Origin: a virus
Strand: one strand, 5' to 3'
Length of the DNA stretch: 64,000 bases
Virus record (IMG/VR): IMGVR_UViG_3300037875_000252
Span: 2,670-66,669 of that record
Position 1 is the stretch's first letter; every line of letters begins with the position of its first letter. Positions 2,588 through 52,961 of this stretch are shown here, one piece after another. The notes beneath the pieces were generated by a model. The model was given only the letters and a program-made list of their open reading frames with translations, was not told the DNA's origin and ran no database searches. Position numbers and translations under genes: made by a program.

Positions 2588-2746
2588 GTGTGTATTATAT
2601 GTAGTAAAACAGTAAGTTATGATAAAATTTCTAAAGTTGATAAATTTTATCATATGTGTTGTAGTTGTGTTGATAAAGTACCAGATCACATACCTGTAGA
2701 ACAGTATAAAAAATATTTAAAAAGTATTAAAATAAAGAATACTTAA
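2588..2746 (+). CDS. PxHIP-family small Zn-finger protein (not in ORF track)
   Basis: CIIC..CCSC..VPDHIPVEQYKKY; GTG start uncertain. Confidence 0.6.
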   Translation: MCIICSKTVSYDKISKVDKFYHMCCSCVDKVPDHIPVEQYKKYLKSIKIKNT

Positions 2747-2796
2747 CTTATATATTATTTTTATAAACATATAATCATAAGTCTTTTCTCATGTGG

Positions 2797-2849
2797 TTAT
2801 AAGTAGTTGAATAATAAAGACTTATATGCAGTTATTCAACTACTTATAA
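2797..2849. repeat. Perfect 18-bp inverted repeat
   Basis: ttataagtagttgaataa-N17-ttattcaactacttataa; arms resemble IHF-type CAA-N4-TTA sites. Confidence 0.7.
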
Positions 2850-2959
2850 AATACATTAATTAATAGTAAAGTTATAAATGCTTTATGTTTAAGTTATGAA
2901 ATTAGGGCAAGGAATATTGCAAAAAATTCATCTCCAAATGGAGAATATAAGTAAAATAA

Positions 2960-3343
2960 ATGGCATTCATTCCTTGCCCAACTAATATGTCAAAAAGAAA
3001 GAATCTTTACATACCTATTAAAGCTATTTGTAAATGTTGCGGTAAAACCGGTGACAAAACATACTTTAATCAAAAATATCTTCATGAAAAATGTAAGAAA
3101 GTAAGACATACACTTGTTATCAGAAGGTCAATAACAAACAATAAAATAAGAAAAGAAGAAGAAACACAAAGATATTTAGATAGTATAAATAGTTGTTTTA
3201 TTAAGAAGATTAGAAACTGTAGAGTGTGCGGTGATAGATTTTTATCCAGTGGTAATCACAATAGAGCCTGTAATAAATGTAATTTAGTAATGGGTAGTTC
3301 TTTAGTTTATATTGTTAAAGTTTATAAGAATCCAAATATATGA
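2960..3343 (+). CDS. Zn-ribbon protein, RxCxxC..F.S....NRxCxxC family (copy 1 of 3)
   Basis: RNCRVCGDRFLSSGNHNRACNKC. Confidence 0.65.
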   Translation: MAFIPCPTNMSKRKNLYIPIKAICKCCGKTGDKTYFNQKYLHEKCKKVRHTLVIRRSITNNKIRKEEETQRYLDSINSCFIKKIRNCRVCGDRFLSSGNHNRACNKCNLVMGSSLVYIVKVYKNPNI

Positions 3344-3522
3344 GTGATAATAAATATTGTGATAAATATGAATATGAAGATGATTGGTTAAATTGTAGAG
3401 GTTGTGGTAAAATGTCTGTTTGGGTTAATTGGGTAAGAAAGTTATGTTCTGATTGCAATTATTTAATTCCACAACATATACCAAAAGAACAATTTAGAAA
3501 ATATTATGAAAAAACTAGATAA
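3340..3522 (+). CDS. PxHIP-family small Zn-finger protein
   Basis: CRGC..CSDC..IPQHIPKEQFRKY. Confidence 0.7.
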   Translation: MSDNKYCDKYEYEDDWLNCRGCGKMSVWVNWVRKLCSDCNYLIPQHIPKEQFRKYYEKTR

Positions 3523-4051
3523 AAAGAATGTATTAATAATAGGTGATACACATTGTAAATTAAGTAGTTGTATTAATACATTTATACCCATAAATAAAAG
3601 TCACATTTTTTGTTCATCAAAATGTGGTAACTCATTCAGAAATCATTTAAATAAGGCAAAATTATGTAAGAAACTGTATCAAAAATCTAAATCTGGTAAA
3701 GATACTAAAAGAAAATATTTACAAACTGATAAAGGAAAAATTGCTTCAAGAAGAAATTCTAAGACATATTTACAAACACCAACTGGTAAGATTAAAAGAG
3801 TTGAGTATTTAAAATCTAAACAAGGAAAATTGAATCATTTATTAGGTTCAGAAAAATATAAGCAAAAATATCCAGAAAGAGTTAAGGCTGTTAGTTTAGC
3901 TAACAGAAAGCTTCCAAAAGGAAACTGTGAAGTAGAAAACTGTAATATAATTGGAGAGAAACACCATGATGATTATAGTAAACCTTTAGAAGTTAGGTAT
4001 TTATGTATGAAACATCATAGAGAATTTCATAAGGCGGTGAAAAGTGTCTAA
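3506..4051 (+). CDS. Putative HNH-like homing endonuclease fused to a phosphoesterase N-terminal fragment
   Basis: Starts KKNVLIIGDTH; ends CEVENC..EKHHDDYSKPLEVRYLCMKHHREFH. Confidence 0.65.
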   Translation: MKKLDKKNVLIIGDTHCKLSSCINTFIPINKSHIFCSSKCGNSFRNHLNKAKLCKKLYQKSKSGKDTKRKYLQTDKGKIASRRNSKTYLQTPTGKIKRVEYLKSKQGKLNHLLGSEKYKQKYPERVKAVSLANRKLPKGNCEVENCNIIGEKHHDDYSKPLEVRYLCMKHHREFHKAVKSV

Positions 4052-4727
4052 TATAAAATTCAAAAAAGAAAATGTTTTAATTATAGGTGATCCTCATGAA
4101 CCTTTTACAGAAGGTGGTTATATAGATTTTTGTTTGGGAGTAAAGAAAGATAGAAAATGTGGTACTGTATTAATAATTGGGGATTTAGTTGATAGTTATC
4201 AAATATCATTAAGAGATTTGGATCCAAATTCTATCTCAGCAAGAGACGAAATAATACTTGCAAGAAAACATTTAAAAGAGTGGTTTAAAGCATTTCCTTA
4301 TGCTAAACTTACATTAGGAAATCACGACTTGAGAATTTACAAAAAAGCATCTAAACATGGTATTCCTGAAATGTGTATGAGAACTTTTAGTGAAATTTGG
4401 GAAATACCTAAAAGATGGGAAGTAAGTTATGAATTTATAATAAATGATGTACTTTATAATCATGGTTTTAGTGCTACAAAAAATGCTGCTATTACATCTG
4501 CTATATATAATCGTATGAGTACTGTTCAAGGTCATGGACATACTACAGCAACAATAGCTTATTCTGCATCACCAAGAGACTGTATATTTGGTATGTCAGT
4601 AGGAACAGGGATAGATCGTAGTGCTATGGCATTTTCTTATGGTATGGGATTTAAAGAAAAACCTATAGTAAGTTGTGGTACAGTAGAAAATGGTAGAAAT
4701 CCTCATATTCATACTATGAGTTTATAA
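4044..4727 (+). CDS. Calcineurin-like metallophosphoesterase
   Basis: IGDPH, IGDLVD, GNHD, HG, GHGH motifs. Confidence 0.85.
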   Translation: MSNIKFKKENVLIIGDPHEPFTEGGYIDFCLGVKKDRKCGTVLIIGDLVDSYQISLRDLDPNSISARDEIILARKHLKEWFKAFPYAKLTLGNHDLRIYKKASKHGIPEMCMRTFSEIWEIPKRWEVSYEFIINDVLYNHGFSATKNAAITSAIYNRMSTVQGHGHTTATIAYSASPRDCIFGMSVGTGIDRSAMAFSYGMGFKEKPIVSCGTVENGRNPHIHTMSL

Positions 4728-4737
4728 AGGATATAAT

Positions 4738-4941: not shown

Positions 4942-5156
4942 TGCAAAATATAAAATGGTCAGCAATTGAATCATTTATAAATGTATTTATAGGATTTCTA
5001 ATAGCACAATTATTAATCCTATATTTACTCCCTTTATGGGATTCCAAATCACTCACACTTAAAGACAGTATACAAATTTCAGCAATATTTACATCAATTA
5101 GTTTCATTCGTGGTTTTATATTTCGTAGGTTATTTAATAAAGTACATAAAAAATGA
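4941..5156 (+). CDS. Small two-TM phage membrane protein
   Basis: S.IES..NV.IG..and S.IRG.I.RRLFN pattern, two hydrophobic segments. Confidence 0.65.
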   Translation: MQNIKWSAIESFINVFIGFLIAQLLILYLLPLWDSKSLTLKDSIQISAIFTSISFIRGFIFRRLFNKVHKK

Positions 5157-5329
5157 ACTGTAGAATATGTGAAGAAATAGTTGGATCACTAGAAGATTTT
5201 GATTTATGTTGTATATGTTTTAATATTATTGTTTGTTTAGAAATACCTAAACATATACCTATACAACAACATTATGAATATATAAACTTAGCAGCTAAAA
5301 AAATTGTTAGAGAAAGAAGGAACAAATGA
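5153..5329 (+). CDS. PxHIP-family small Zn-finger protein (not in ORF track)
   Basis: MNCRIC..CCIC..IPKHIPIQQHYEY; ATGA overlaps with both neighbours. Confidence 0.7.
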   Translation: MNCRICEEIVGSLEDFDLCCICFNIIVCLEIPKHIPIQQHYEYINLAAKKIVRERRNK

Positions 5330-7306: not shown

Positions 7307-7453
7307 TGAAAAAACTGCACAATTATTACAACTTAATAAAAATGGTATGGACTTAATAGTTTACTTGAGTGTTGTGATTGTGTTCAATTAGTTCCTAGTT
7401 ATATACCTTTAGAACAAAAAGAAAAATACTTAGAAAGAAAATATGAAATGTAA
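7307..7453 (+). pseudogene. Disrupted PxHIP-family copy
   Basis: CCDCVQLVPSYIPLEQKEKYL in a frame blocked by an upstream TAA with no in-frame start. Confidence 0.5.
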
Positions 7454-7658
7454 ATATTGTAATAATAATAAACCTAGAATAAGTGCTACCAAACATTACA
7501 CAACTGGTATTATAACACAATGGTTATCTTGTTCTGTTTGTGAAAATGTAATTCATGAGATACCAGATCACATACCAATAAAACAACATAGAAATTATAT
7601 AATTTCTTATTTTAATAAATATGAAAGTTTAAAATGTAAAAAGAGAAGTTTACATTAG
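7443..7658 (+). CDS. PxHIP-family small Zn-finger protein
   Basis: CKYC..CSVC..IPDHIPIKQHRNY. Confidence 0.7.
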   Translation: MKCKYCNNNKPRISATKHYTTGIITQWLSCSVCENVIHEIPDHIPIKQHRNYIISYFNKYESLKCKKRSLH

Positions 7659-7845: not shown

Positions 7846-7858
7846 AAAGGAGTCGGGG

Positions 7859-8669
7859 GTGATTGGTGGTATACTCTACAATGAATGTTGTCTTTCTTCT
7901 ATGAACAGAATGAAAGATGATTTTGTAGATTTAACTATTACGTCACCCCCTTATTAACGATGCTGTAAGGGATTACAAAGGATTTAAGTTTGATTATAAA
8001 CCAATAATCAAAGAATTATTTAGAGTAACTAAAAAAGGTGGTGTGGTTGTTTGGGTAGTCAATGATCAAGTTATAAATGCTTCTGAATCTGGTACAAGTT
8101 TCATACATGCTCTAGAATTCATCAATCAGGGATTTAAGTTACATGATACTATGATATATGAGAAGAATGGTGCCACATTTCCAGCCAGAAGAGATGGTAA
8201 TAGGTACACACAAATATTTGAATTTATGTTTGTGTTCTCTAAAGGTAAACCAAAGACAGCTAATCTTCTGTGTGATAAGGAAAATATCTATAGAGGTGAT
8301 AAACCACATAAAACTAAGTATAGAGATAAAGAAGGAACATTAATATCTAGAATACAAAAGCCAGTTCCATCTCACAGCCCTAGAAATAATATTTGGAGAT
8401 ATATTACAGGTAAGTATTGTAGTACTAAGGATGAAATAGCATTTGAACATCCAGCTATTATGCCTGAGTTACTTGCTAATGACCATATATTGACATGGAG
8501 TAATGAGAATGATATAATTTACGATATATGTGGTGGTTCTGGTAGCACAGGTATTATGGCATATGAGAATAATAGAAAGTTTATTATGTCAGAGATTTCA
8601 TCTGAATATTGTGATATAATTAAGAAAAGGTTTAAAACTAGATTTGGTAAGGAGATTAATGTATTATGA
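7859..8669 (+). CDS. N4-cytosine/N6-adenine DNA methyltransferase (beta class), split by a +1 frameshift
   Basis: 7859-7957 encodes ...DLTITSPPY*; +1 frame from 7956 continues NDAVRDY..ELFRVTKKGG..HPA.MP..DICGGSGSTG. Confidence 0.8.
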
Positions 8670-8884
8670 TATGTGTTAAATGTAAAGAATATTATGTAGA
8701 TACATTCAATACACAAGAATATGTTGATGGAAAGATTGTTGATATAAAATATGAGCCACCAGATATAAAATTTTGTATTTCCTGTAGATTAAATATTGTA
8801 CCAGATCATATACCTACCAGTAACAATAACGATTTACAATATGGTAAATACGTAATGGCTTATCAAAGGAAATACTATGGATGA
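8666..8884 (+). CDS. PxHIP-family small Zn-finger protein
   Basis: CVKC..CISC..VPDHIP. Confidence 0.7.
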   Translation: MICVKCKEYYVDTFNTQEYVDGKIVDIKYEPPDIKFCISCRLNIVPDHIPTSNNNDLQYGKYVMAYQRKYYG

Positions 8885-9065
8885 AGCTGATAAAATAATG
8901 AATTGTAAAATGTGTTTAGATCAGTGTACATCAGTAAAAGATTTCAATAGTTCTACATGTAATGATTGTGATACTTATGTAGTACCAGATCATATACCAG
9001 AAGAACAACATTTTAAATTTGTTACAAATTATATAAGGAAATACCATGAGAATATACTGCCCTGA
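8877..9065 (+). CDS. PxHIP-family small Zn-finger protein
   Basis: CKMC..CNDC..VPDHIPEEQHFKF. Confidence 0.7.
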   Translation: MDEADKIMNCKMCLDQCTSVKDFNSSTCNDCDTYVVPDHIPEEQHFKFVTNYIRKYHENILP

Positions 9066-9252
9066 ATGTAGTGAAAGATTAGTTATTGCTGGATCAGAAG
9101 TTAGTTGTGAGATAGAATGTCCTAATTCTCATTGTGAGTATGAAGGACCTAGATTATCAGTTGATATACCTAATGAATATATATGTGAGGCACTTGTGAA
9201 AGCATTTCTAGTATTGGAAGGTTTAAATGAAGAATCTACAAATAACCTGTAA
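9046..9252 (+). CDS. Small Zn-ribbon protein
   Basis: CPEC..CPNSHC. Confidence 0.6.
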   Translation: MRIYCPECSERLVIAGSEVSCEIECPNSHCEYEGPRLSVDIPNEYICEALVKAFLVLEGLNEESTNNL

Positions 9253-9439
9253 AGATTGTTGTAAAGTATGTAATATAACTAAATTTAGCAATCATTATCT
9301 ATATTGGTGTATGTGTGAACCTAATGGTTTAATGAAACATGTGTATATTCCAGACCACATACCATCAAAACAACATAGGAAATATATGAAGGAGAAATAT
9401 GGCAAGACAGAAATATGGCAAGAAAGAAAAATGATTTAG
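9227..9439 (+). CDS. PxHIP-family small Zn-finger protein
   Basis: CKDC..CMC..IPDHIPSKQHRKY. Confidence 0.7.
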   Translation: MKNLQITCKDCCKVCNITKFSNHYLYWCMCEPNGLMKHVYIPDHIPSKQHRKYMKEKYGKTEIWQERKMI

Positions 9440-9483: not shown

Positions 9484-9696
9484 ATGAAATGTTATGTATG
9501 TGGTTCTTCAGATGTAATAATGTATGATCACATAGGATATACATTCTACAGTTTTATGTGTAATAACTGTAATAAATATAATCCTAATATTATAGGATCT
9601 GGTAGGGTATTTGTAGATATACCAAAACATATACCTTATAAACAAATACAAAAATATAAAGATAAAATAAGAGAGAAAAATAATGCCAATATATGA
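9484..9696 (+). CDS. PxHIP-family small Zn-finger protein
   Basis: CYVC..CNNC..IPKHIPYKQIQKY. Confidence 0.7.
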   Translation: MKCYVCGSSDVIMYDHIGYTFYSFMCNNCNKYNPNIIGSGRVFVDIPKHIPYKQIQKYKDKIREKNNANI

Positions 9697-9868
9697 TTAT
9701 CAATGTAATAACTGTAAAGTAGTATTTGAACACTATCAGAAGATTAACAGTAAACCAATTAGAAAATGTAAATCTTGTAAAGAATTTAAGTTACAGAGAT
9801 TAATATGTAAACCTAACATTATCTTTAAAGGGCCAGGTTTTTATGTCAACGACTATAAGAATAAATAG
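9683..9868 (+). CDS. FmdB-family Zn-ribbon protein
   Basis: MPIYDYQCNNC..CKSC..FKGPGFYVNDY signature. Confidence 0.85.
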   Translation: MPIYDYQCNNCKVVFEHYQKINSKPIRKCKSCKEFKLQRLICKPNIIFKGPGFYVNDYKNK

Positions 9869-10049
9869 ATGTAAATTATGTGTTACAAGTGATGATAGTG
9901 ATGAAGAATATTATAGAACTAATAATTATGTGGATTTCAATACTTCATACTGTGTTACTTCTTGTGATGGTGGAATAGTTCCTAAACATATACACAAATC
10001 ACAAGTATTTAAATATATTAAATTATCTATTGAGAAACATAATGAATAA
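9843..10049 (+). CDS. PxHIP-family small Zn-finger protein (variant)
   Basis: CKLC..CVTSC..VPKHIHKSQVFKY. Confidence 0.65.
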   Translation: MSTTIRINRCKLCVTSDDSDEEYYRTNNYVDFNTSYCVTSCDGGIVPKHIHKSQVFKYIKLSIEKHNE

Positions 10050-10233
10050 ACTTAAAGAATGTAAAACTTGTATAAACGTAGGAGGTTATAGAGATTGCTT
10101 TAATAGAAATGATCATGAAGAATTTTTCTCAGTTTATTGTAGAACTGGTTGTAAACTTAAATTAGTACCTAATCATATACCTAATGAACAAGTAATAAAA
10201 TACCTAAAGAAAATTTTTAAGGGGTACCTATGA
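10030..10233 (+). CDS. PxHIP-family small Zn-finger protein
   Basis: CKTC..CRTGC..VPNHIPNEQVIKY. Confidence 0.7.
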   Translation: MRNIMNKLKECKTCINVGGYRDCFNRNDHEEFFSVYCRTGCKLKLVPNHIPNEQVIKYLKKIFKGYL

Positions 10234-10397
10234 AAAATAACTATAAACCAGAAGTTTGTAAAGGGTGCATACTTTATCAATCACCACCTTGGGATGATAA
10301 TACATGTAAAAAATGTAGTAATAGTATTCCCAAACATATACCAGCAGAGCAATCTTATAACTTTGTAATTAAATCTTTTATTAAACTATACCTATGA
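10230..10397 (+). CDS. PxHIP-family small Zn-finger protein (not in ORF track)
   Basis: CKGC..CKKC..IPKHIPAEQSYNF. Confidence 0.7.
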   Translation: MKNNYKPEVCKGCILYQSPPWDDNTCKKCSNSIPKHIPAEQSYNFVIKSFIKLYL

Positions 10398-20451: not shown

Positions 20452-20655
20452 GTGAACAAGATGAAAAAAATATCTGATTATATATCTGTATTTGTATTTA
20501 TAGTAATTTTAACATTAATGGGTGTAATTGGTTTTATTGATAGTTGTAAAAATAATATTATATATGAAGATGATATTATATACGATAGTCTTGATGATTT
20601 TACACAATCTTATTCTTACTGTACTTGGAGAACTAATTTTAAAATAATTAAATGA
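20452..20655 (+). CDS. Small membrane protein
   Basis: Single TM segment. Confidence 0.5.
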   Translation: MNKMKKISDYISVFVFIVILTLMGVIGFIDSCKNNIIYEDDIIYDSLDDFTQSYSYCTWRTNFKIIK

Positions 20656-20834
20656 TATGTAAAAACTGTAAAACTAGAGATATAAATAATATGTGGGAAA
20701 ATAATATAAATTATGAAAAAGAATTATTTATATATTGCTCTTCATGTAGAACTAAGTTAATACCATATCACATACCAGATGATCAGTATGTTAAATATTG
20801 GATAGAATTTTCTAGAAAGAATAAATATGAATAA
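20652..20834 (+). CDS. PxHIP-family small Zn-finger protein
   Basis: CKNC..CSSC..IPYHIPDDQYVKY. Confidence 0.7.
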   Translation: MICKNCKTRDINNMWENNINYEKELFIYCSSCRTKLIPYHIPDDQYVKYWIEFSRKNKYE

Positions 20835-21279: not shown

Positions 21280-21567
21280 ATGAGAATTTATAAAGAATAT
21301 ACAGATTGGTTTACTAGGATTAATTCTAAAGGTGAGTTAATTATGTATCATTTAGGAATTAATAAATGTACATGTTCTAAAAAATTTAATAGAGATAAAA
21401 TAAATGAAAAATTTAAAAATTACGATTACGATAAATATGATGATTGGATACATAATCCTTATAGAGTAAGAAATCCAATACACATACCAGAAGAACAGAT
21501 TGAGATGTATTGGAAAAAAAGAATTACAAAACTTTATAATGAGGAAAAAAATAATGTACAAAAATAA
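21280..21567 (+). CDS. PxHIP-family protein (long form)
   Basis: NPIHIPEEQIEMYW. Confidence 0.65.
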   Translation: MRIYKEYTDWFTRINSKGELIMYHLGINKCTCSKKFNRDKINEKFKNYDYDKYDDWIHNPYRVRNPIHIPEEQIEMYWKKRITKLYNEEKNNVQK

Positions 21568-21815: not shown

Positions 21816-22592
21816 ATGGATAAAGTAAGTAATACTGTATTAGAAGTAATTATAAATTATAAAATTAATCCTTCCAGTTATTCACCATACCATTATTCAC
21901 ATAGTAGAGTAAATGAAGTAAGAAAGTATATTTCTTGTGGTAAATATACAAATAAAGGTGAAGAATTAATAAATGAATATGATAAATTTATTAACTTATT
22001 AAATAAATTTGATTGTATTGGTGGTAAAGATTTTAATGACAATACGTATGAAATAAAAATAAATAATAGTTTGTTAAGTTGTGTTATTAGTACACAATTT
22101 AAAAAAGGTGTTTATAATACATTTTTAAAACTACCAGAAATATTTAATAGTAATATCTGTTCATCAGTAAATAAGGAATTAAAGAAAGTTAAAGAAAGTA
22201 AATTAATTGAAATTAAAAGATGTAATATTAATATTAAAGGTATGATTTACGATAAAGAATTTGATTTTAAATTTATAATAAGTGATTTAAGTATAAAATT
22301 TAAATTTATTTTTGATGAAAATCATATTAATGATAAATTTATGACAATTAGTAGCATACCATCTCATATACCATACGTACAACAACATAAATACATTATT
22401 AAACATTACCAACAAAAAGAAGTAATACAAAATTTTATTAGTAAAAAATATAAAACAGAAATTTATAGATGCTGTAATAATAAATTATTATTACATCATA
22501 ATTTCTGTTTTAATTGTGGTAAAGAAATTAAAATTCCAACTATAGATATAAAGGAGGTTGTTGAAGAAAAATTAGAAAGTTTATTAAAGTAA
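21816..22592 (+). CDS. Hypothetical protein with internal PxHIP motif
   Basis: IPSHIPYVQQHKY at about residue 180; C-terminal CFNCG. Confidence 0.6.
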   Translation: MDKVSNTVLEVIINYKINPSSYSPYHYSHSRVNEVRKYISCGKYTNKGEELINEYDKFINLLNKFDCIGGKDFNDNTYEIKINNSLLSCVISTQFKKGVYNTFLKLPEIFNSNICSSVNKELKKVKESKLIEIKRCNINIKGMIYDKEFDFKFIISDLSIKFKFIFDENHINDKFMTISSIPSHIPYVQQHKYIIKHYQQKEVIQNFISKKYKTEIYRCCNNKLLLHHNFCFNCGKEIKIPTIDIKEVVEEKLESLLK

Positions 22593-33419: not shown

Positions 33420-33676
33420 AAATAGAAAATTGTTATATATGTGGTAATAAACCATTTAGGTCTTTTTATTATGGTATTAAAAATGGTTTTTTAGATGAAA
33501 CTGGGTTAAATATTAACTTTTTTTCTTTTGAAAAAAGACCTAATTATGTAAATTTATGTGAAAATCATTTTATGAGTTTAGGAAGTGTTAGTTGCGTACC
33601 AGATCACATACCAAAAAAACAAGTATGGAATTTTTTATTAAATAAATTAGTTAAAGAAAATAAAGATGAAAAATAA
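33410..33676 (+). CDS. PxHIP-family small Zn-finger protein
   Basis: CYIC..CENH..VPDHIPKKQVWNF. Confidence 0.7.
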   Translation: MGMKIENCYICGNKPFRSFYYGIKNGFLDETGLNINFFSFEKRPNYVNLCENHFMSLGSVSCVPDHIPKKQVWNFLLNKLVKENKDEK

Positions 33677-33887: not shown

Positions 33888-34181
33888 ATGGATGATAAAC
33901 TAACAAAACAAGATATTGATTTACTAGTTGAAGGAATTGAGATGTGGGAGAAATATCCTGAGATGATAATAAACACATATGAATTTATGAAACAAGGATA
34001 TATAGAAAAAGGTTCTACACAACCAATTGATGAAGCTACACAAATAAAAATTAAAGAATTAAAAGAGCAAATTAAAACTAGAAAGCATCAAGCTATACTT
34101 ATTAAATACAAATTAGTAAAATTAAATCATGTGTTAGATGTAGAAGAAATAGAGAAAAAATTTAACAAGGAACAAAATTGA
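33888..34181 (+). CDS. Hypothetical protein
   Basis: AAGGAG RBS, 97 aa. Confidence 0.6.
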   Translation: MDDKLTKQDIDLLVEGIEMWEKYPEMIINTYEFMKQGYIEKGSTQPIDEATQIKIKELKEQIKTRKHQAILIKYKLVKLNHVLDVEEIEKKFNKEQN

Positions 34182-34444
34182 AATCATCATGCGGCAATTG
34201 TGGAGATTTTGTTAGTGGTGTTGTAGTAAATTACTACTATAACAATCAAAGTATGATATATTGTTGTTTTGATAATAATTATGATGGTGTATTTATTGTT
34301 GAAGAAAATATATTTATTATTTGTAAAGAATGTGAAAATGAATTTAATATAAATAAATTCTCTGATTATCATATACCAAAACATATACCAGAAAAACAAA
34401 GACATAAATATTTTAAAACTTTTATAGAAAAGAATAGAAAATGA
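34178..34444 (+). CDS. PxHIP-family small Zn-finger protein
   Basis: CGNC..CKEC..IPKHIPEKQRHKY. Confidence 0.7.
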   Translation: MKSSCGNCGDFVSGVVVNYYYNNQSMIYCCFDNNYDGVFIVEENIFIICKECENEFNINKFSDYHIPKHIPEKQRHKYFKTFIEKNRK

Positions 34445-35094: not shown

Positions 35095-36319
35095 ATTTGA
35101 GAAACTATTAATATCAGCACTACTAAAAGATAAACAATTTTTAAAAGAAACAATAGGTTATATTGATGATGAAATATTTAAAAATCAATACTATAAATAT
35201 TTTTATTCTATATTAGAAACATATTATAATAAGTATAATAATGTAATACCTTTTGATATATTTAAATATTTACTATCCAAAACTTTAACTAAACAAAATT
35301 TCTCTAACGAAGAATTCCCTATAATATCAGGATTAATAATTGATATATTTGATACAAAATACGATATTAAATTTTTAAAGTCTGAAATAGGTAATCACAT
35401 AAAAGAACGTAAGTTAAGAAAAATATTATCAAGTGCTAGTCAAAATTTTAATTTAAATAAAATTGAAAAACTATTAGAAGATTTAAAAGATGCTAATAAA
35501 TATGATCCTGAAGAAGATAAACCACTTGAATACGTATCATCATTACACAAAAGAAGTCTTGGTCAAAAGCCAGTACCAACATCTATTACTAGTTTAGATA
35601 CTATTATTGGTGGTGGAATAACTCCAGGTGAATTTGGTTTAATTTCTGCTCAAACTGGTGGTTGTAAATCTATGACTTTATTAAATTTTGCTTGGGGTGC
35701 TGTTCATTTAGGTTTTAGGGTATTGTTTATAACCCTAGAAGATTCTATGGATACTGTGATGCAAAGATTTGATGCTTTATTCTCAAATCAAGAATTTATA
35801 ACTTTTAGGAGAGACCCAACAGCTTCACAAAGAATTAAAAATAAAGTACTTGAACATAAAAATAAATTATATGTGAAGGATTTTTCATCTGGTATATGTA
35901 CAGTAGGTAAAATAAGGTCAGTTATAGCTGGTATGGATAAAATGGATTTAATTGTAGTAGATTATTTAGATGAATTAGGTGGAAGAAATAAGAGAAGTGA
36001 CAGATGGCAAGAAGTGGAAGATTCATCTAGGGAATTAAAAGCATTGGCATCTGAGTTAAATGTTCCTGTTTGGACAGCCACACAAACATCTTCAGCTAGT
36101 TATGGTAAGGAATTTGTAGGGTTACAACATATATATGGTGGTAAAGGTAAAGCACATATATCACATATTGTAATTACTGCTGTTCAGACAGAAGAGGAAA
36201 GAGCAGGTAATAGATTAAGATACATAATAAGCAAACAGAAAAATGGACCTAAAGGTGGAGTAGTGGATTGTATTGTTGACTTAGCTAAAGTTAGAATTCA
36301 TGATGCTAAACTAATATGA
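35084..36319 (+). CDS. dnaB: Replicative DnaB-like helicase
   Basis: LD.IIGGG..PGE, AQTGGCKS, FITLED, IVVDYLD, LKALA.ELNVPVWTATQ, KQKNG. Confidence 0.88.
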   Translation: MTDEFEKLLISALLKDKQFLKETIGYIDDEIFKNQYYKYFYSILETYYNKYNNVIPFDIFKYLLSKTLTKQNFSNEEFPIISGLIIDIFDTKYDIKFLKSEIGNHIKERKLRKILSSASQNFNLNKIEKLLEDLKDANKYDPEEDKPLEYVSSLHKRSLGQKPVPTSITSLDTIIGGGITPGEFGLISAQTGGCKSMTLLNFAWGAVHLGFRVLFITLEDSMDTVMQRFDALFSNQEFITFRRDPTASQRIKNKVLEHKNKLYVKDFSSGICTVGKIRSVIAGMDKMDLIVVDYLDELGGRNKRSDRWQEVEDSSRELKALASELNVPVWTATQTSSASYGKEFVGLQHIYGGKGKAHISHIVITAVQTEEERAGNRLRYIISKQKNGPKGGVVDCIVDLAKVRIHDAKLI

Positions 36320-36516
36320 ATAATGAATATTATTTGTGTAAAAAATGTAATACACAATATGAATATAAATACTGTATATTACAGGTAGGTTTTGATAGTA
36401 ACTCTAATGATGAACATAAAGGTTATTGTTATATTTGTTTTGTTGAATCTAAAATACCAGACCATATACCAAAAGAACAATGGTCAAAATACATGGATAA
36501 AAAATATGGAAACTAA
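36316..36516 (+). CDS. PxHIP-family small Zn-finger protein
   Basis: CKKC..CYIC..IPDHIPKEQWSKY. Confidence 0.7.
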   Translation: MNNEYYLCKKCNTQYEYKYCILQVGFDSNSNDEHKGYCYICFVESKIPDHIPKEQWSKYMDKKYGN

Positions 36517-36655
36517 CTGTGCGTTATGTATTCATAAAAGTTTTACACGTTCATTTTTAATTGGTGTTTGTTTAAAATGTAGAGATAAAATAATACCAGA
36601 CCACATACCATCAAGACAACATAAGAAATATTTAGAATTTAAAAAGATAATATGA
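36506..36655 (+). CDS. PxHIP-family small Zn-finger protein
   Basis: METNCALC..CLKC..IPDHIPSRQHKKY; start reassigned from 36392. Confidence 0.7.
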   Translation: METNCALCIHKSFTRSFLIGVCLKCRDKIIPDHIPSRQHKKYLEFKKII

Positions 36656-36822
36656 GAAAATGTTTACTTTGTTATAAAGATGTGTCAATATGTGATTTTC
36701 TACCTAATAGTAAAATATGTAGAACGTGTTTTTTTTGATATACACAAACTCGTACACAATCATATTCCAAAATAACAGTTTCTAAATATATAAAAGCAAA
36801 GATTAAGAAAAATGAAAGGATA
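36652..36822 (+). pseudogene. Decayed PxHIP-family copy
   Basis: MRKCLLC..CRTCFF* with poly-T frameshift, then VHNHIPK*QF. Confidence 0.55.
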
Positions 36823-37086: not shown

Positions 37087-37515
37087 ATGGATAACATAAA
37101 TAAGATAGATCGTGTAGCAGTTAGTGGTGAAAAGAATGGTAGATGGTCAGGTGGTGTTAATTCTTATTATAAAAACCATTACCAATTAAAACTTAATAGA
37201 AAAGAAAAGATGAAACAAGTAGGTAGTTTATGTGAGAAATGTGGTAAGAAAGTTCCACTATTTGCAACACATAAAGATGGTGACAAAGATAATCATATTA
37301 TAATTAATTTAGAAATGTTATGTAGTAGATGTAGACCAAGATCAAAAGACTATAATAGTAAATATGTTAAGAAGTTTGGTATGTCTATGGAAACTATGAA
37401 AAATAAATACAATCTTACAGAACATGACGTATATAAAAAATGTATTAAGACTTCTAGTAATGAGAAAGAAATAAAAATTAAATTAGAAAAACTTTCTGAA
37501 GAAAATAACAAATGA
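37087..37515 (+). CDS. HNH endonuclease-like protein
   Basis: GEKNGRWSGG, CEKCG, HKDGDKDNH..NL.MLC.RC. Confidence 0.75.
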   Translation: MDNINKIDRVAVSGEKNGRWSGGVNSYYKNHYQLKLNRKEKMKQVGSLCEKCGKKVPLFATHKDGDKDNHIIINLEMLCSRCRPRSKDYNSKYVKKFGMSMETMKNKYNLTEHDVYKKCIKTSSNEKEIKIKLEKLSEENNK

Positions 37516-38021
37516 ATATGTATATCTACTATTTTTTATATTACTATATATGTAGTACTCCAATAATATTTTTTATAATATATAACTCTTTGTTTGTATA
37601 TGAACAAAATAATTGGGGTTTTAGTATGAGTAAATCTTTTTTTGAATCAAATAAAATTTACTCAATATATTTTGGAATTTTACTTACATTAGTAAATGTT
37701 ATTGGTATTTTACTTACATATTTTTTCACTAAAAAATTTAAATATGGTATTGGTTTTCATAAAAATATTAAATTAATATGTAAAAAATGTAATAAAAAAC
37801 TTACAATTTCAAAAAATGTAGATTTTGAAATTTTTAATGGTTTTAAATATGGTAATATTATAATTAATGGTTTGAAATATGGTAATATTACAAATAATGA
37901 TGAAATATTTATTAAATGTGTAAAATGTTATGAAACTTTATGGTATAAAATACCATCACATATACCATTAAGCCAAAATAAAAACTATTTAAAATTATTT
38001 AAAAAGAAATATGTATTATAA
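37512..38021 (+). CDS. Membrane protein with C-terminal PxHIP Zn-finger module
   Basis: Two TM segments then CKKC..CVKC..IPSHIPLSQNKNY. Confidence 0.65.
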   Translation: MNMYIYYFLYYYICSTPIIFFIIYNSLFVYEQNNWGFSMSKSFFESNKIYSIYFGILLTLVNVIGILLTYFFTKKFKYGIGFHKNIKLICKKCNKKLTISKNVDFEIFNGFKYGNIIINGLKYGNITNNDEIFIKCVKCYETLWYKIPSHIPLSQNKNYLKLFKKKYVL

Positions 38022-38175
38022 ATGTAAATGTTGTAAAGAAAATATAATTAATGAATGTAGCGAATCTTATATATGTGGTTGTGTTTGTGCTGTGTGTAGA
38101 GATAAGATTATACCTAAATACATTCCACTAAAACAACATAAAAAATATTTAAATTCTAAATATAAAATATTATGA
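38011..38175 (+). CDS. PxHIP-family small Zn-finger protein (not in ORF track)
   Basis: CKCC..CAVC..IPKYIPLKQHKKY. Confidence 0.65.
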   Translation: MYYKCKCCKENIINECSESYICGCVCAVCRDKIIPKYIPLKQHKKYLNSKYKIL

Positions 38176-38336
38176 AACATTGTACTATTATTTGTAAAAT
38201 GTGTTATAAAATTTTATATTGTAAGTTATCAAAAAAAACTGGTATATGTTTTAATTGTAGAGAAGAATTAATTCCAAATCACATACCAAAAGAACAATTT
38301 AAAAAATATTGGAGTAATAAAAAGTGGATGATATAA
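38172..38336 (+). CDS. PxHIP-family small Zn-finger protein (not in ORF track)
   Basis: CKMC..CFNC..IPNHIPKEQFKKY. Confidence 0.7.
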   Translation: MKHCTIICKMCYKILYCKLSKKTGICFNCREELIPNHIPKEQFKKYWSNKKWMI

Positions 38337-39131: not shown

Positions 39132-39401
39132 ATGGAACTACAAAAAGCAATAAAAAAATCTACGTGTCAAAATCACGCATATAGAGTTAATGAAGATGGA
39201 AGTTTATTATTCTATAACGGTAATAATAAATATTCTGGTTTTGGTAATACTGGCGTACACCATACAGGTAAAATATTATCTACTAATGAATCAAACTATA
39301 ATGATTGGATACCATACTTTATAAAACCTGAACATATACCAGATGATCAATGGTTCACTTATTTTAAATCTTATTGGGAGAAACATAAAGATGAAACTTA
39401 G
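39132..39401 (+). CDS. PxHIP-family protein (non-CxxC N-terminus)
   Basis: KPEHIPDDQWFTYF. Confidence 0.65.
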   Translation: MELQKAIKKSTCQNHAYRVNEDGSLLFYNGNNKYSGFGNTGVHHTGKILSTNESNYNDWIPYFIKPEHIPDDQWFTYFKSYWEKHKDET

Positions 39402-44189: not shown

Positions 44190-44190
44190 T

Positions 44191-46767: not shown

Positions 46768-46966
46768 TAACTTAATAGGAGAAAAATTATGGAAACATTT
46801 GTACTAGTATGTAGTATATTATTTGCAATCAAGTCTACTGTTATTTTGCAATCAAGTTTTAAACAAATTAAAATTACTAGAAATCAGAGAATATTTCAAT
46901 TTGTTATTGCTACTGGTATAGCAACTTGGGGATTTTTAACATATTTTTAAATTTATTACTAATACT

Positions 46967-51199: not shown

Positions 51200-51460
51200 T
51201 TCTTACAGGAGAATATAATATTTTTGTTCTAAAATCTGTATGAAAAGATTTAATGATTCTGAGTATACTGTAATAAAATAAGTGTGTACCTTTCCTAAAT
51301 TAAATGATGACTTTTTAAAAAACTTATTTTAAAATTTAATTTTTTATGTTATAATATTTTTATTTTAAAAACTAAATTTTGATGTGATTTTTTTAGCTTC
51401 CATTCACTACGTTCATTCAAAAAAGCTAAAAAAATAAGAAACAAGTTTCTTAAAAGATTA

Positions 51461-51489
51461 ATTATAACAAGTATCTTAAAATGTGTCAA
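51461..51489 (-). promoter_or_regulatory. Consensus sigma-70 promoter facing a non-coding AT-rich region
   Basis: TTGACA-N17-TATAAT on minus strand. Confidence 0.65.
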
Positions 51490-51598
51490 GCATATTTTAG
51501 ATAACACCTCATTTTACAGGACTTATGACAACTATATTTCACTTGACATACAGATTGAATTATGTCAACAACATTCTTAGTTTTGCAGGAGATGAAAA

Positions 51599-51853
51599 AT
51601 GAATAAATATAAGGTAAATATTAGAAAAATAGGTGATAAAAAATGGGAAGAATTTACAGGTTCTTTCAGTGAGAAAAAAGGTTATACTATAGAAAAGGTT
51701 AAAGATCATATGGTTGAATTTTTCTCATCACCACAGTATAGTTGTTATGAATTTAGTATATTTCAGAAGAGGTTAGGAATAAAAACAATTAAATATGATT
51801 ACTTGTATGTGTTAGATCTACCTACGATTACACCTTTTAGTAACTTAAATTGA
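51599..51853 (+). CDS. Hypothetical protein
   Basis: AGGAG RBS. Confidence 0.55.
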   Translation: MNKYKVNIRKIGDKKWEEFTGSFSEKKGYTIEKVKDHMVEFFSSPQYSCYEFSIFQKRLGIKTIKYDYLYVLDLPTITPFSNLN

Positions 51854-52050
51854 GTGTGTATAAATGTGCGTGTTGTGGATCTATACATGATCCTAATATA
51901 CATGATCCTAATATACATGATCCTAATATACATGATCCAGATCTTCTTCCACAATATTGTAATATTTGTTTTTATTCTATACCTAAACATATACCTTTAG
52001 AACAACATGAAAAATATTTAATATCTTTAAAAAAGGAAAATTATGATTGA
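51850..52050 (+). CDS. PxHIP-family protein with IHDPN repeats
   Basis: CACC..(IHDPN)x3-IHDPD..CNIC..IPKHIPLEQHEKY. Confidence 0.7.
   Translation: MSVYKCACCGSIHDPNIHDPNIHDPNIHDPDLLPQYCNICFYSIPKHIPLEQHEKYLISLKKENYD
51883..51942 (+). repeat. In-frame tandem repeat, 4 x 15 bp
   Basis: atacatgatcctaat x3 plus one variant. Confidence 0.9.
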
Positions 52051-52222
52051 TAAATGTAAAGGTTGTGGTGAAAATCATATTATAAAAACTGGTATGTGGT
52101 TAGCTTTGTATTGTAATAAATGTTTTAATTTAATACCTATAGACCACATTCCACCAGAACAACATGAGAAATACATATTAAGCAAATTAAAAGCTAGGAG
52201 GATAAATGGCTATAAAGGGTAA
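52043..52222 (+). CDS. PxHIP-family small Zn-finger protein (not in ORF track)
   Basis: CKGC..CNKC..IPIDHIPPEQHEKY. Confidence 0.7.
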   Translation: MIDKCKGCGENHIIKTGMWLALYCNKCFNLIPIDHIPPEQHEKYILSKLKARRINGYKG

Positions 52223-52631
52223 ATTTTTAACTAAAAGAATAAGAAAAACATACTGTAAATATGAAAATTGTGGTAGAGAGCTACTTACCAGATCATCCAA
52301 TAAACAATATTGTCGTAAACATAGAGAAATCATATGTAAGGAAACCAGAAAACTAGCAAGTGAAAGCAGAAAAAGTTCATATATTCGTACTGAAAAATCT
52401 ATATCTCCTAGAGATATAGTTAGAGAAAAAAGAAATTGTTTGAAGTGTGGTGAGAAATTTAGTAGCTTATCCACACATAATAGGGTATGCTATGATTGTT
52501 CTGTAGTAAATGAAAGATGTAAAGAAGGACATAGTATACATTTTGGTGATTTTGGTGTAGACTTTAGAGAATGTGAAGAAATAACACAAATATCTTTAAA
52601 CTGTAGTGATTGGATTCCTTATATAAAATGA
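52206..52631 (+). CDS. Zn-ribbon protein, RxCxxC..NRxCxxC family (copy 3 of 3)
   Basis: RNCLKCGEKFSSLSTHNRVCYDC. Confidence 0.65.
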   Translation: MAIKGKFLTKRIRKTYCKYENCGRELLTRSSNKQYCRKHREIICKETRKLASESRKSSYIRTEKSISPRDIVREKRNCLKCGEKFSSLSTHNRVCYDCSVVNERCKEGHSIHFGDFGVDFRECEEITQISLNCSDWIPYIK

Positions 52632-52795
52632 GAATATTAAAATGTAAATGTTGTGGAGAAGAAAAACAAGTCTATGAATATACTGAACAAATAGTAGGTT
52701 ATTGTGTAGATTGTGTTAATAGTGTACCTAGTCATATAAATGTTTATCAATTAAGAAAGTATTTATTATTTTTAAGTGAGAAAAATGAAAACTAA
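52628..52795 (+). CDS. PxHIP-family small Zn-finger protein (variant)
   Basis: CKCC..CVDC..VPSHINVYQLRKY. Confidence 0.65.
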   Translation: MRILKCKCCGEEKQVYEYTEQIVGYCVDCVNSVPSHINVYQLRKYLLFLSEKNEN

Positions 52796-52961
52796 AACTT
52801 GTACAGTATGTGGACTTAATTATGAGTACGATTCTTGGGAGTTTAATATAGAATCAGAGAAATTATGTTGGGGTTGTGTTAGTACAATACCTCTACATAT
52901 ACCAGATGTTCAAGTAAAAAAATACTTATTAATGAAAAAGGAGAGATATGAGAAAGTGTGA
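52776..52961 (+). CDS. PxHIP-family small Zn-finger protein
   Basis: CTVC..CWGC..IPLHIPDVQVKKY. Confidence 0.7.
   Translation: MRKMKTKTCTVCGLNYEYDSWEFNIESEKLCWGCVSTIPLHIPDVQVKKYLLMKKERYEKV

What the first reader, a model, noticed from the sequence alone, without database searches (positions are those of the whole stretch)
2588..52961. Dispersed family of about 38 micro-genes sharing a [IV]PxHIPxxQxxxY motif
Seen in sequence: about 38 ORFs (mostly 50-90 aa, all on the + strand) end in a [IVL]-P-x-H-I-P-x-x-Q-x-x-x-[YF] motif plus a short basic tail, usually after two CxxC pairs separated by a highly variable spacer. Starts: 2588, 3340, 5153, 7307*, 7443, 8666, 8877, 9227, 9484, 9843, 10030, 10230, 20652, 21280, 21816, 24959, 25240 (two motifs), 25589, 25755, 26331, 26937, 30306, 30859, 33207, 33410, 34178, 34905*, 36316, 36506, 36652*, 37512, 38011, 38172, 39132, 51850, 52043, 52628, 52776 (* disrupted). 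The DNA core is often ATACCA-GATCAC-ATACCA, but synonymous variants (cca/cct/ccc, cac/cat, ata/att) occur, which points to protein-level selection. I do not recognise this as a described family. Inference, three alternatives: (a) a selfish mini-gene spreading via the ATACCA-N6-ATACCA core; (b) an effector library with a variable Zn finger on a constant docking motif; (c) cis-acting leader peptides.
Basis: partly seen in the sequence, partly recalled or inferred. Interest (0 to 1): 0.92.

Follow-up and report, generated by a model that had tools for sequence, protein, structure and literature searches.

The report
Expanded zinc-ribbon micro-protein family in marine phage
An uncultured seawater phage devotes about an eighth of this stretch to some 38 tiny related genes, each a variable zinc-ribbon head joined to one nearly invariant tail motif, a protein family absent from the domain libraries searched and whose function is still unknown.

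Summary
All 38 listed loci exist, all on the + strand: 37 open frames carrying 38 motif copies, plus one broken remnant. The degenerate DNA form of the motif occurs 32 times against 0.01 expected. It is a real protein family. Synonymous codons vary in the motif here and in related phages. A profile finds 504 representative proteins elsewhere, and three related phage contigs carry 5-7 copies each, some at the same positions.

Pfam, PHROGs, NCBIfam, PADLOC, PDB and BFVD give no significant match. AlphaFold2 (pLDDT 81) predicts a zinc ribbon, an extended [IV]Px[HY]IP loop and a basic amphipathic helix (Qxx[KR][YF][LI]). The tail also occurs without any zinc ribbon and in two or three tandem copies, so it looks like an autonomous module.

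My best reading (0.42) is a library of accessory proteins encoded among the replication genes. A constant tail would dock variable heads onto one common partner, which is unidentified. The family grows by tandem duplication, changes by in-frame indels and loses copies by decay.

The selfish mini-gene, leader-peptide and DNA-signal readings are disfavoured. A link to radical-SAM peptide modification remains a long shot. Translation was not shown.

The parts
2588..2746 (+). family member, 52 aa, GTG start
   Evidence: HMM E 4.4e-15; VPDHIPVEQ
3340..3522 (+). family member, 60 aa
   Evidence: HMM E 5.6e-16
5153..5329 (+). family member, 58 aa, directly upstream of nrdJ
   Evidence: HMM E 3.5e-16
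   Evidence: HMM E 3.6e-7, not a seed; three-frame view
7443..7658 (+). family member, 71 aa
   Evidence: HMM E 4.1e-14
8666..8884 (+). family member, 72 aa, with a 5-aa insertion between HIP and Q
   Evidence: HMM E 3e-11; alignment
8877..9065 (+). family member, 62 aa
   Evidence: HMM E 2.5e-18
9227..9439 (+). family member, 70 aa
   Evidence: HMM E 3.9e-16
9484..9696 (+). family member, 70 aa
   Evidence: HMM E 1.8e-11
9843..10049 (+). family member, 68 aa, HIH variant
   Evidence: HMM E 2e-7, not a seed
10030..10233 (+). family member, 67 aa; best external relative P0018
   Evidence: HMM E 1.4e-14
10230..10397 (+). family member, 55 aa
   Evidence: HMM E 4.2e-14
20652..20834 (+). family member, 60 aa; presumed orthologue P0078, 55% identical over 58 aa
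   Evidence: HMM E 3.5e-14
21280..21567 (+). member without zinc ribbon (YDDW...PIHIPEEQ type), 95 aa
   Evidence: HMM E 6.7e-8
21816..22592 (+). 258-aa protein with an internal tail module
   Evidence: HMM E 1.4e-5; no Pfam or PHROG family
24959..25228 (+). family member, 89 aa; presumed orthologue P0098, 49% identical
   Evidence: HMM E 1.3e-13
25240..25611 (+). member with two tail modules, 123 aa
   Evidence: HMM E 4.4e-23, two domains
25589..25768 (+). family member, 59 aa
   Evidence: HMM E 4e-16
25755..25976 (+). family member, 73 aa; strain L014 lacks 33 nt of its spacer
   Evidence: HMM E 3.4e-14
26331..26531 (+). family member, 66 aa; best external relative P0117
   Evidence: HMM E 2.6e-15
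26937..27152 (+). family member, 71 aa
   Evidence: HMM E 4.7e-15
30306..30620 (+). member without zinc ribbon, 104 aa
   Evidence: HMM E 9.1e-7
30859..31062 (+). family member, 67 aa; this site is empty in relative G001
   Evidence: HMM E 5e-13
33207..33419 (+). family member, 70 aa
   Evidence: HMM E 6e-12
33410..33676 (+). family member, 88 aa
   Evidence: HMM E 5.1e-13
34178..34444 (+). family member, 88 aa; positional counterpart in G001
   Evidence: HMM E 5.1e-13
   Evidence: HMM E 5e-13
36316..36516 (+). family member, 66 aa; carries the 24-nt cassette at 36358-36381
   Evidence: HMM E 2.7e-14
36506..36655 (+). family member, 49 aa; carries the same cassette in the other haplotype
   Evidence: HMM E 1.7e-14
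36652..36793 (+). decayed copy: T8 frameshift plus a TAA inside the motif
   Evidence: fragments at E 0.08-0.8; three-frame view
37512..38021 (+). 169-aa member with a hydrophobic N-terminal region (my reading of the sequence, not tested)
   Evidence: HMM E 5.2e-10; sequence
38011..38175 (+). family member, 54 aa, PKYIP variant
   Evidence: HMM E 5.5e-5, not a seed
38172..38336 (+). family member, 54 aa, directly upstream of the primase gene
   Evidence: HMM E 4.5e-13
39132..39401 (+). member without zinc ribbon (YNDW type), 89 aa
   Evidence: HMM E 5.3e-9
51850..52050 (+). family member, 66 aa; its spacer holds a 15-nt x 3.8 perfect repeat
   Evidence: HMM E 9.8e-14
52043..52222 (+). family member, 59 aa, PIDHIPPEQ variant
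   Evidence: HMM E 6.2e-12, not a seed
52628..52795 (+). family member, 55 aa, HIN variant; best external relative P0024
   Evidence: HMM E 1.8e-8, not a seed
52776..52961 (+). family member, 58-61 aa, directly upstream of the DNA polymerase gene; the protein that was modelled
   Evidence: HMM E 7.2e-14; AlphaFold2 pLDDT 81
55247..55510 (+). possible distant relative (CxxCG ... FIPERQREY), conserved downstream of the DNA polymerase gene in all relatives
   Evidence: BLAST counterparts in L021, L027 and L037, the last with EYIPVYQREY; not found by the HMM

Best explanation
These are real genes of one phage-specific protein family. Each protein joins a variable head to a constant tail of about 25 residues. 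The head is usually a CxxC...CxxC zinc ribbon with a 12-30 residue spacer of free sequence. The tail is an extended [IV]-P-x-[HY]-I-P segment that leads into a basic amphipathic helix beginning Q-x-x-[KR]-[YF]-[LI].

I read the tail as an autonomous binding module that brings every member to the same partner. That partner could be a host or phage protein, or possibly a nucleic acid. The heads would supply different specificities or activities. On this reading the family is a library of accessory, host-takeover or counter-defence type proteins that sit among the replication genes.

The family expands by tandem duplication. It diversifies by in-frame insertions, deletions and repeat slippage in the spacer, and it loses copies by frameshift decay.

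Shown: the family is real, coding constraint acts on it, it is modular, it occurs in related phages, and copies are gained and lost. Inferred: the tail docks to a common partner, the timing of expression, and any role in host takeover. Unknown: the partner, the host, and whether the proteins are made.
For: Reality and coding constraint. There are 32 motif matches against 0.01 expected, all on one strand. Synonymous codons vary inside the motif: CCA/CCT/CCC, CAT/CAC, CAA/CAG, TAT/TAC. In related phages the invariant Ile is ATA 9, ATT 3, ATC 1 and GTA 1.

Spread. Profile A1 finds 504 representatives at E<=0.001 among 1.84 billion proteins. The 150 listed are 49-157 aa and 18 are the window's own. 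In those 150, Gln at +7 is 99% and Tyr/Phe at +11 is 97%; neither position was constrained by my anchor.

Modularity. Five of 37 modules here have no CxxC pair upstream and one gene has two modules. Outside this phage, P0002 has three tail modules and P0083 two, without zinc ribbons.

Age and individuality of the paralogues. For 29 of 36 members the best external representative outscores the best paralogue. Full-length matches reach 55% (20652 with P0078) and 49% (24959 with P0098), against 33-48% for full-length paralogue matches.

Related phages. Their DNA polymerase is 56-59% identical and the L037 terminase 81%. They carry 7, 5 and 6 copies in 15, 13.6 and 42 kb. Positional counterparts lie either side of the 34441 homologue, upstream of dnaB. 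Other sites filled here are empty there.

Turnover. Thirteen of 36 members have their closest paralogue within 1.5 kb (my count). Three copies are broken. Strains differ by in-frame indels of 24, 33 and 3 nt in spacers. Spacers also hold perfect tandem repeats.

Structure. AlphaFold2 with 132 sequences gives pLDDT 81 and pTM 0.60. It predicts short strands around the Cys pairs, a short helix at the second CxxC, a loop over IPLHIP and a helix at residues 41-57.

Context. The copies lie between nrdJ, the SbcCD-like fusion, uvsW, dnaB, primase, DNA polymerase and other genes, all on the same strand.
Against: No partner was found and nothing here tests binding. The modelled motif has high confidence within a monomer (pLDDT 87-88 for residues 31-50). 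It may therefore simply be part of the fold rather than a docking surface, and I could not inspect coordinates.

Codon use in the motif departs from the genome. The second Ile is ATA in 33 of 33 copies, against 59% genome-wide and 75% before Pro. Pro is CCA in 51 of 66 against about 40-53%. His is CAC in 13 of 33 against 15%. Gene conversion, shared ancestry (a 'GAT CAC' set versus an 'AAA CAT' set) or some nucleotide-level constraint may therefore add to protein-level selection.

Translation signals are weak. Sixteen of 35 family starts have any Shine-Dalgarno-like core, and 3 have AGGAG or better. Among large genes the figures are 22 of 23 and 11 of 23.

No fused form with a known domain was found, which is weak evidence. 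The comparison of external against paralogue hits is biased, because there are about 126 external sequences against 35 paralogues. Transcription and translation were not shown.
Confidence: 0.42

Rival explanations
1. The conserved motif is only the fold-defining core of a very small zinc-ribbon-plus-helix domain. The paralogues would be independent small regulators, for example DNA- or RNA-binding proteins that use the basic helix, with no shared partner.
For: The tails are basic: net charge is +1 to +7 in 31 of 37 modules. Gln, Lys/Arg and Tyr on one helix are common nucleic-acid contacts (general knowledge, not tested here). The motif is modelled with high confidence in a monomer. The genes lie among replication genes.
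Against: The tail occurs without any zinc ribbon and as two or three tandem copies, so it does not depend on that fold. Near-invariance of polar Gln (99%) and His/Tyr in 150 sequences drawn from 50%-identity clusters is more than small domains usually need for folding. No fold or family match supports a known nucleic-acid-binding domain.
Confidence: 0.22
2. The constant tail is a targeting signal that loads the variable proteins into the capsid, so that they are injected with the DNA. This would resemble the capsid-targeting sequence of T4 internal proteins.
For: It is the same logic of a constant address with a variable cargo, and these are small basic proteins. There is no direct evidence.
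Against: The genes sit in the replication region, not with the portal and terminase genes. The T4 signal is N-terminal and cleaved (recalled from memory, not tested). The virion genes lie mostly outside this record.
Confidence: 0.08
3. The micro-genes are precursor peptides of a modified-peptide library, like the prochlorosins. The constant tail would be the recognition sequence for one of the phage's two radical SAM enzymes, which would act on the Cys-rich variable part.
For: There are two radical SAM genes, at 1069-1941 and 17831-18541. For the first gene the best NCBIfam rows are peptide maturases: PapB at E 1e-11 and PqqE. The second gene's best rows also include non-maturases (viperin, a tungsten-cofactor maturase). 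The C-terminus of the first gene, residues 210-278, matches the SPASM region of the SCIFF maturase. The first member, at 2588, lies 650 nt downstream of the first enzyme.
Against: All those scores are far below the family cut-offs (about 45 bits against 340), and they mostly cover the generic radical SAM core. The enzyme has no room for an N-terminal recognition domain, because its Cys cluster starts near residue 20. The Cys pattern and the model are those of a structural zinc ribbon. Five modules have no Cys pairs. No radical SAM homologue turned up in the 42-kb relative G001, which is only 41% complete.
Confidence: 0.06
4. The unit is a selfish mini-gene, or an in-frame mobile cassette, that copies itself through the repeated ATACCA core with no benefit to the phage.
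For: Copy number varies widely between relatives: 38 in 64 kb against 6 in 42 kb. Sites filled here are empty in G001. Three copies are decaying. A 24-nt in-frame cassette sits in either of two neighbouring members in natural haplotypes. The genome also holds two inteins. A bacterial prolyl-tRNA synthetase in L017 carries a tail-like stretch.
Against: ATACCN-N6-ATACC is never found outside the motif, out of frame or on the other strand. Outside the motif, ATACCA occurs 28 times against about 31 expected. The exact 18-mer hits only unrelated contigs in IMG/VR, 0 of 11 with a family member. Relatives use other codons. Paralogues have old, full-length relatives in other phages and positional counterparts in a related one. 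The L017 hit was one of about two chance hits expected for that pattern search.
Confidence: 0.07
5. The conservation serves a cis-acting signal. That would be either a leader or arrest peptide controlling the downstream gene, or a DNA or RNA site such as a promoter or protein-binding repeat that happens to lie in frame.
For: Codon bias in the core goes beyond genome usage. Many members overlap or abut the next gene.
Against: The motif lies a median of 25 residues from the stop, and the helix between is itself conserved at the amino-acid level. Synonymous variants exist at every degenerate site across phages. The DNA core never occurs in intergenic DNA. Rfam finds only a tRNA.
Confidence: 0.03

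Closest known systems
Generic zinc-ribbon / treble-clef micro-proteins of phages (many unannotated 'zinc-ribbon domain protein' entries)
   Same: Two CxxC knuckles on short strands and a size of 50-90 aa. The weak, non-significant structural neighbours are zinc-binding proteins.
   Different: No sequence family matches. None of those carries the [IV]Px[HY]IPxxQxx[KR][YF] tail. None is known to me as a 38-copy family in one phage; that statement is from memory, and the literature searches found nothing.
Poxvirus ankyrin-repeat / PRANC (F-box-like) multigene families
   Same: They work alike in principle. Many paralogues in one viral genome combine a variable target-binding part with a short constant C-terminal motif that docks on one host hub. 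This is recalled knowledge and serves only as an analogy.
   Different: There is no sequence or fold relationship. The hosts are eukaryotic, the hub (Skp1 / SCF) is known there and unknown here, and docking is not shown here.
Prochlorosin-type precursor libraries (many procA genes, one ProcM)
   Same: Dozens of small genes in one marine genome share a constant recognition part and a hypervariable Cys-containing part (recalled knowledge). Radical SAM enzymes are present in this phage.
   Different: The constant part here is C-terminal and helical. The Cys pattern is that of a structural zinc site. No lanthipeptide synthetase is present, and the radical SAM matches are generic and below cut-off.
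Host-takeover modules of small early genes (SPO1 gp37-60, T7 class II small proteins beside the DNA polymerase gene)
   Same: Arrays of tiny genes are interleaved with replication genes on one strand. The comparison itself is recalled.
   Different: Those modules are collections of unrelated proteins, not one paralogous family with a shared motif.
Gin/CsfB anti-sigma zinc proteins (PF10764)
   Same: A small protein with two CxxC pairs.
   Different: Only 1 of the first 10 members scanned matches, at E 0.57 and 10.7 bits against a cut-off of 27. No member matches at E<=0.001 among all 31 scanned.

Membership tests
Zinc ribbon (structural class) | Two Cys pairs (CxxC) forming knuckles | tested here: met
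   Of 37 modules, 24 have two strict CxxC pairs and 8 have one plus variant spacing. The Cys columns are invariant or above 90% in alignments A1 and A2.
Zinc ribbon (structural class) | Beta-hairpin knuckles in the fold | tested here: met
   The AlphaFold2 model has strands at 3-5 and 12-14, bridges at 21-26 and a helix at the second CxxC; pLDDT 81. This is a prediction only.
Zinc ribbon (structural class) | Binds zinc | not testable with these tools
   Needs metal analysis of purified protein.
Any Pfam / PHROG / NCBIfam / PADLOC family | Score at or above the family threshold | tested here: not met
   The best Pfam row is zf-DNL at 19.5 bits against a cut-off of 27, in 1 of 31 members. PHROGs gives 0 of 31 at E<=0.001. 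NCBIfam gives two single-member rows at E 0.003-0.005. PADLOC gives 0 of 31.
Radical SAM/SPASM-dependent modified-peptide precursor | A dedicated maturase of a recognised family next to the precursors | tested here: inconclusive
   Two radical SAM genes are present but score 29-45 bits against cut-offs of 265-525. They are not adjacent to most arrays.
Radical SAM/SPASM-dependent modified-peptide precursor | The peptide is modified | not testable with these tools
   Needs mass spectrometry.
HNH / homing endonuclease | A nuclease domain with catalytic His-Asn-His | tested here: not met
   No HNH Pfam hit in any of the 31 members. The proteins are 49-104 aa. Foldseek rows naming HNH have E 0.5-3.4.
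Clamp-binding (QLxLF) or PIP-box (Qxx[LIM]xx[FY][FY]) peptide | Hydrophobic residues at the defined spacings after Gln | tested here: not met
   Position Q+3 is Lys/Arg in 75% and the aromatic residue is at Q+4. The consensus patterns are recalled from memory.
Mobile element / selfish mini-gene | The DNA core recurs independently of the reading frame, or identical copies appear at new sites | tested here: not met
   All 17 ATACCN-N6-ATACC occurrences are in-frame motifs on the + strand and none is elsewhere.

The most novel reading that the evidence does not exclude
The tail is a portable docking tag, and the phage carries a library of about 38 interchangeable zinc-ribbon heads that it recruits to one host hub. 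That would be a bacterial-virus counterpart of the poxvirus ankyrin/PRANC strategy. The heads would be actively diversified by in-frame cassette exchange between neighbouring paralogues, as the 24-nt cassette found in two alternative genes hints. If so, this abundant seawater phage group would hold a fast-evolving adaptor repertoire aimed at many host targets or defences through a single docking site.
Probability: 0.2. Interest if true: 0.88.

Novelty: new variant of a known kind. Interest (0 to 1): 0.68.

Why it matters
About 29% of the predicted genes in this stretch, and 13% of its bases, belong to one undescribed family. A near-invariant short tail on hypervariable heads points to a single, strongly constrained contact with the host or with the phage's own machinery. 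Finding that partner could reveal a central vulnerability or control point of an uncultured marine host. It would also give a first function to 500 or more clusters of 'hypothetical' micro-proteins. The family also offers a clean natural system for studying the birth, diversification and death of micro-genes. Such genes are usually dropped by gene callers, and many here have weak ribosome-binding sites.

Tried and rejected
Searches that found nothing useful
- I ran tblastn of one member against 50,697 GenBank phage records, with no match at E<=1.
- The phage itself has no close cultured relative. Its DNA polymerase is at most 27% identical to any record, its terminase at most 24%, and nrdJ 58%.
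- The exact 18-mer found 11 loci in IMG/VR, and 0 of 11 hold a family member.
- A close-relative search with the DNA polymerase alone found none.
- The word-index protein search with A1 gave 11 rows, mostly this phage's own proteins.
- The 'longer' search for fused forms scored none of 3531 candidates, which is weak evidence.
- The ESM Atlas returned only unnamed clusters and generic zinc-protein look-alikes, with TM at most 0.52.
- Foldseek against PDB gave a best E of 2.3, and against BFVD a best E of 0.31.
- Pfam on the longer or atypical members found nothing above cut-off.
- I ran four literature searches and saw listings only. None concerned this family and I read no paper. My statement that the family is not in print rests on these four searches alone.

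Complex prediction
- I submitted two copies of the 52776 protein with zinc. The verdict was 'no answer' (score 0.01, mark 0.42). It counts neither for nor against self-association.

Considered and dropped
- ATACCA as a free DNA signal. Its count outside the motif is as expected. The excess of its complement on the + strand follows from the strong GC skew.
- A ribosome-arrest peptide, because the motif lies too far from the stop.
- The prolyl-tRNA synthetase hit in L017 as proof of in-frame mobility. That gene is 16 aa longer than the E. faecalis enzyme at this end, but the pattern scan was expected to give about one chance hit, and it gave two non-family loci (L015, L017; L013 was the chance hit of the genome scan). 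I did not follow this further.

Not obtained
- Read-level evidence of expression.
- Supplementary files were not consulted.

Full report
SOURCE. The window is bases 2670-66669 of a single 66,669-bp virus record whose ends do not overlap. GC content is 24-33% and almost all genes are on the + strand. The recognisable genes are as follows:
- replication and recombination: nrdJ, a fused SbcD-SbcC-like protein, a UvsW helicase and a RecA (each interrupted by an intein), DnaB, primase, a family A DNA polymerase, ATP-dependent ligase and SSB;
- packaging: portal and terminase;
- others: a protein kinase, a MoxR-type ATPase with a VWA-like partner, and two radical SAM enzymes.

No cultured phage is close. 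The DNA polymerase is at most 27% identical to any GenBank phage record and the terminase at most 24%. The sequence index finds the DNA in seawater and marine metagenome runs.

One has its N-terminal part in another frame (7306). One has a frameshift in an A6 run (34905). One has a T8 frameshift plus a stop codon inside the motif (36652). A 39th, much more distant relative may be the conserved gene at 55247-55510; its counterpart in a related phage reads EYIPVYQREY. The family occupies 8,505 bases, 13% of the window.

PROTEIN OR DNA? Mainly protein. Every degenerate codon position of the motif shows synonymous alternatives in this genome, except the second Ile. In the three related phages that Ile is ATA 9, ATT 3, ATC 1 and GTA 1. 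The DNA repeat ATACCN-N6-ATACC occurs 17 times, always as the in-frame motif. It never occurs on the other strand, out of frame or between genes. ATACCA outside the motif occurs 28 times against about 31 expected.

A residue of nucleotide-level bias remains unexplained. The second Ile is ATA in 33 of 33 copies, against 59% in long genes and 75% (36 of 48) for Ile before Pro. Pro is CCA in 51 of 66, against 41-53%, or 38% after Ile. His is CAC in 13 of 33, against 15%. Part of this tracks two subtypes, Asp-His as GAT CAC and Lys-His as AAA CAT. One neighbouring pair, 34178 and 34909, shares 36 identical bases. Shared ancestry and local gene conversion are therefore the simplest causes.

IS IT KNOWN? 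Not in the libraries at hand. Pfam gives no row at or above cut-off for 31 members; the best is zf-DNL at 19.5 bits against 27, in one member. PHROGs gives none of 31 at E<=0.001. NCBIfam gives two stray rows and PADLOC none. The AlphaFold2 model has no significant neighbour in PDB (best E 2.3) or BFVD (best E 0.31). The ESM Atlas returns unnamed clusters. Four full-text literature searches gave nothing relevant (listings only).

IS IT FOUND ELSEWHERE? Yes. A profile of 31 members finds 504 representatives (50% clusters) at E<=0.001 among 1.84 billion proteins. Only the best 150 are visible. They are 49-157 aa long and 18 are this phage's own. Aligned on the motif, the consensus is C-x-x-C-[RS]-x-x-[IL]-[IV]-P-[DK]-[HY]-I-P-x-E-Q-x-x-[KR]-[YF]-[LI], followed by alternating hydrophobic and Lys positions. 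Gln is at 99% and Tyr/Phe at 97%. The median distance from the motif to the C-terminus is 25 residues. There is a median of 5 residues between the last CxxC and the motif, and 12-30 between the Cys pairs. The Pro, His/Tyr and Ile columns were fixed by my anchor.

Degenerate DNA patterns and a DNA polymerase alignment pulled three related phage contigs out of IMG/VR: L021/L036, L027 and L037/G001. Their GC is 31-37%, their DNA polymerase 56-59% identical, the L037 terminase 81% and the L037 portal 69%. They hold 7, 5 and 6 family members in 15, 13.6 and 42 kb. Phages whose DNA polymerase is only 21-28% identical have none in the stretches fetched, 0 of 11 loci.

ANATOMY AND EVOLUTION. AlphaFold2 with 132 sequences (pLDDT 81, pTM 0.60) predicts short strands around the first Cys pair, a helical turn at the second, a loop over IPLHIP and one long helix over the rest. 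The tail is not tied to the zinc ribbon. Five modules here have no Cys pair; three of them follow a Y-[ND]-D-W segment instead. One gene has two modules, one 258-aa protein has an internal module, and one 169-aa member has a hydrophobic N-terminal region by my reading. Outside this phage, P0002 is three tails in a row and P0083 two.

The paralogues are old and individual. For 29 of 36 the best external sequence beats the best paralogue, though this comparison is biased by the larger external set. Clear full-length relatives (presumed orthologues) reach 49-55% identity. In G001 the order 33888-homologue, member, 34441-homologue, member, dnaB is the same as here. The sites before uvsW, after dnaB and before the primase gene are filled here and empty there.

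Thirteen of 36 members have their nearest paralogue within 1.5 kb (my count), which points to tandem duplication. Near-identical strains (L012, L014, L016; 96.4-99.8% identity over the aligned blocks) differ in the spacers by in-frame indels of 24, 33 and 3 nt. Two spacers contain perfect tandem repeats.

FUNCTION. Nothing here measures function. The pattern is an autonomous, nearly invariant, partly polar tail on free-running heads. It is kept for long enough that individual paralogues have full-length relatives in other phages, and it sits among replication genes. That pattern is most simply explained by a common binding partner for the tail and diverse roles for the heads (confidence 0.42).

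The main rival is that the motif is only the core of a mini-domain and that the members act independently, perhaps on nucleic acids (0.22). Capsid targeting (0.08), a radical-SAM peptide library (0.06), a selfish mini-gene (0.07) and cis-acting signals (0.03) follow. About 0.12 is left for something not considered.

Cautions:
- Family genes have weak ribosome-binding sites. Sixteen of 35 have any Shine-Dalgarno-like core, against 22 of 23 large genes.
- Three copies are decaying.
- Expression rests only on an index hit in two RNA libraries of one study, with shares 0.40 and 0.26. I could not lay the reads.

VERDICT. This is a real, undescribed and unusually expanded micro-protein family of a widespread seawater phage group. 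Its mechanism is inferred, not shown.

Noticed in passing
window 36358-36381 and the site at 36517; L012 1939-2275: A 24-nt in-frame cassette (8 codons) lies in member 36316 in the window but in the neighbouring member 36506 in strain L012. The surrounding 5 kb has only one other difference, a single base at 39321. Exact-sequence look-up shows two natural haplotypes: gene A long on 20 contigs with gene B short on 16, and gene A short on 47 contigs with gene B long on 44. The mechanism is unexplained.
   Followed up: partly
L017 898-2664 (metagenome contig, GC 40%): A bacterial prolyl-tRNA synthetase carries EIPEHIPKEQHEKYLLEKNK near its C-terminus. At that end it is 16 aa longer than the E. 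faecalis enzyme. This is probably one of the chance hits expected for the pattern scan, but an in-frame insertion is not excluded.
   Followed up: partly
window 31068-33206 and 57175-59247: UvsW carries an intein with an HNH domain, and RecA carries an intein with a LAGLIDADG domain. The homologues in relative G001 are 427 and 349 aa and appear intein-free.
   Followed up: partly
window 7832-8669: A DNA methyltransferase-like gene is split by a frameshift just after its SPPY motif. The methyltransferase reading is mine, from the motif, and was not tested against a library.
   Followed up: no
window 1069-1941 and 17831-18541: There are two radical SAM genes. The C-terminus of the first resembles a SPASM region, and all NCBIfam scores are far below cut-off.
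   Followed up: partly
window 10461-10552 and 16976-17078: A perfect 13-nt x 7.1 tandem array and a 42-nt x 2.5 array lie at the two borders of the - strand block, where GC skew changes sign. They are candidate origin or regulatory repeats.
   Followed up: no
window 46696-46768: A single tRNA-Gln (UUG), which reads CAA. CAA is the codon of the invariant Gln in 27 of 33 motifs.
   Followed up: no
window 39410-39580 versus L012: Strain L012 has a 172-nt insertion with a small open frame, and a burst of substitutions, just after member 39132. The next genes, 39580-39843 and 41902-42219, are far more diverged than the rest, which suggests mosaic recombination.
   Followed up: no
window 22622-24889 and 43446-46663: A MoxR-type ATPase lies beside a VWA-like/DUF2201 protein. 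Separately, a gene matching an unannotated PHROG (its counterpart in L021 reads like a VWA domain, my reading) lies next to a 565-aa protein kinase. Gene sets of this kind are often linked to conflict systems (recalled from memory).
   Followed up: no
window 9046-9252, 9683-9868, 21020-21160, 33666-33866, 2183-2569, 2960-3343: Several further small Cys-rich proteins lack the tail motif and are interleaved with the family.
   Followed up: no
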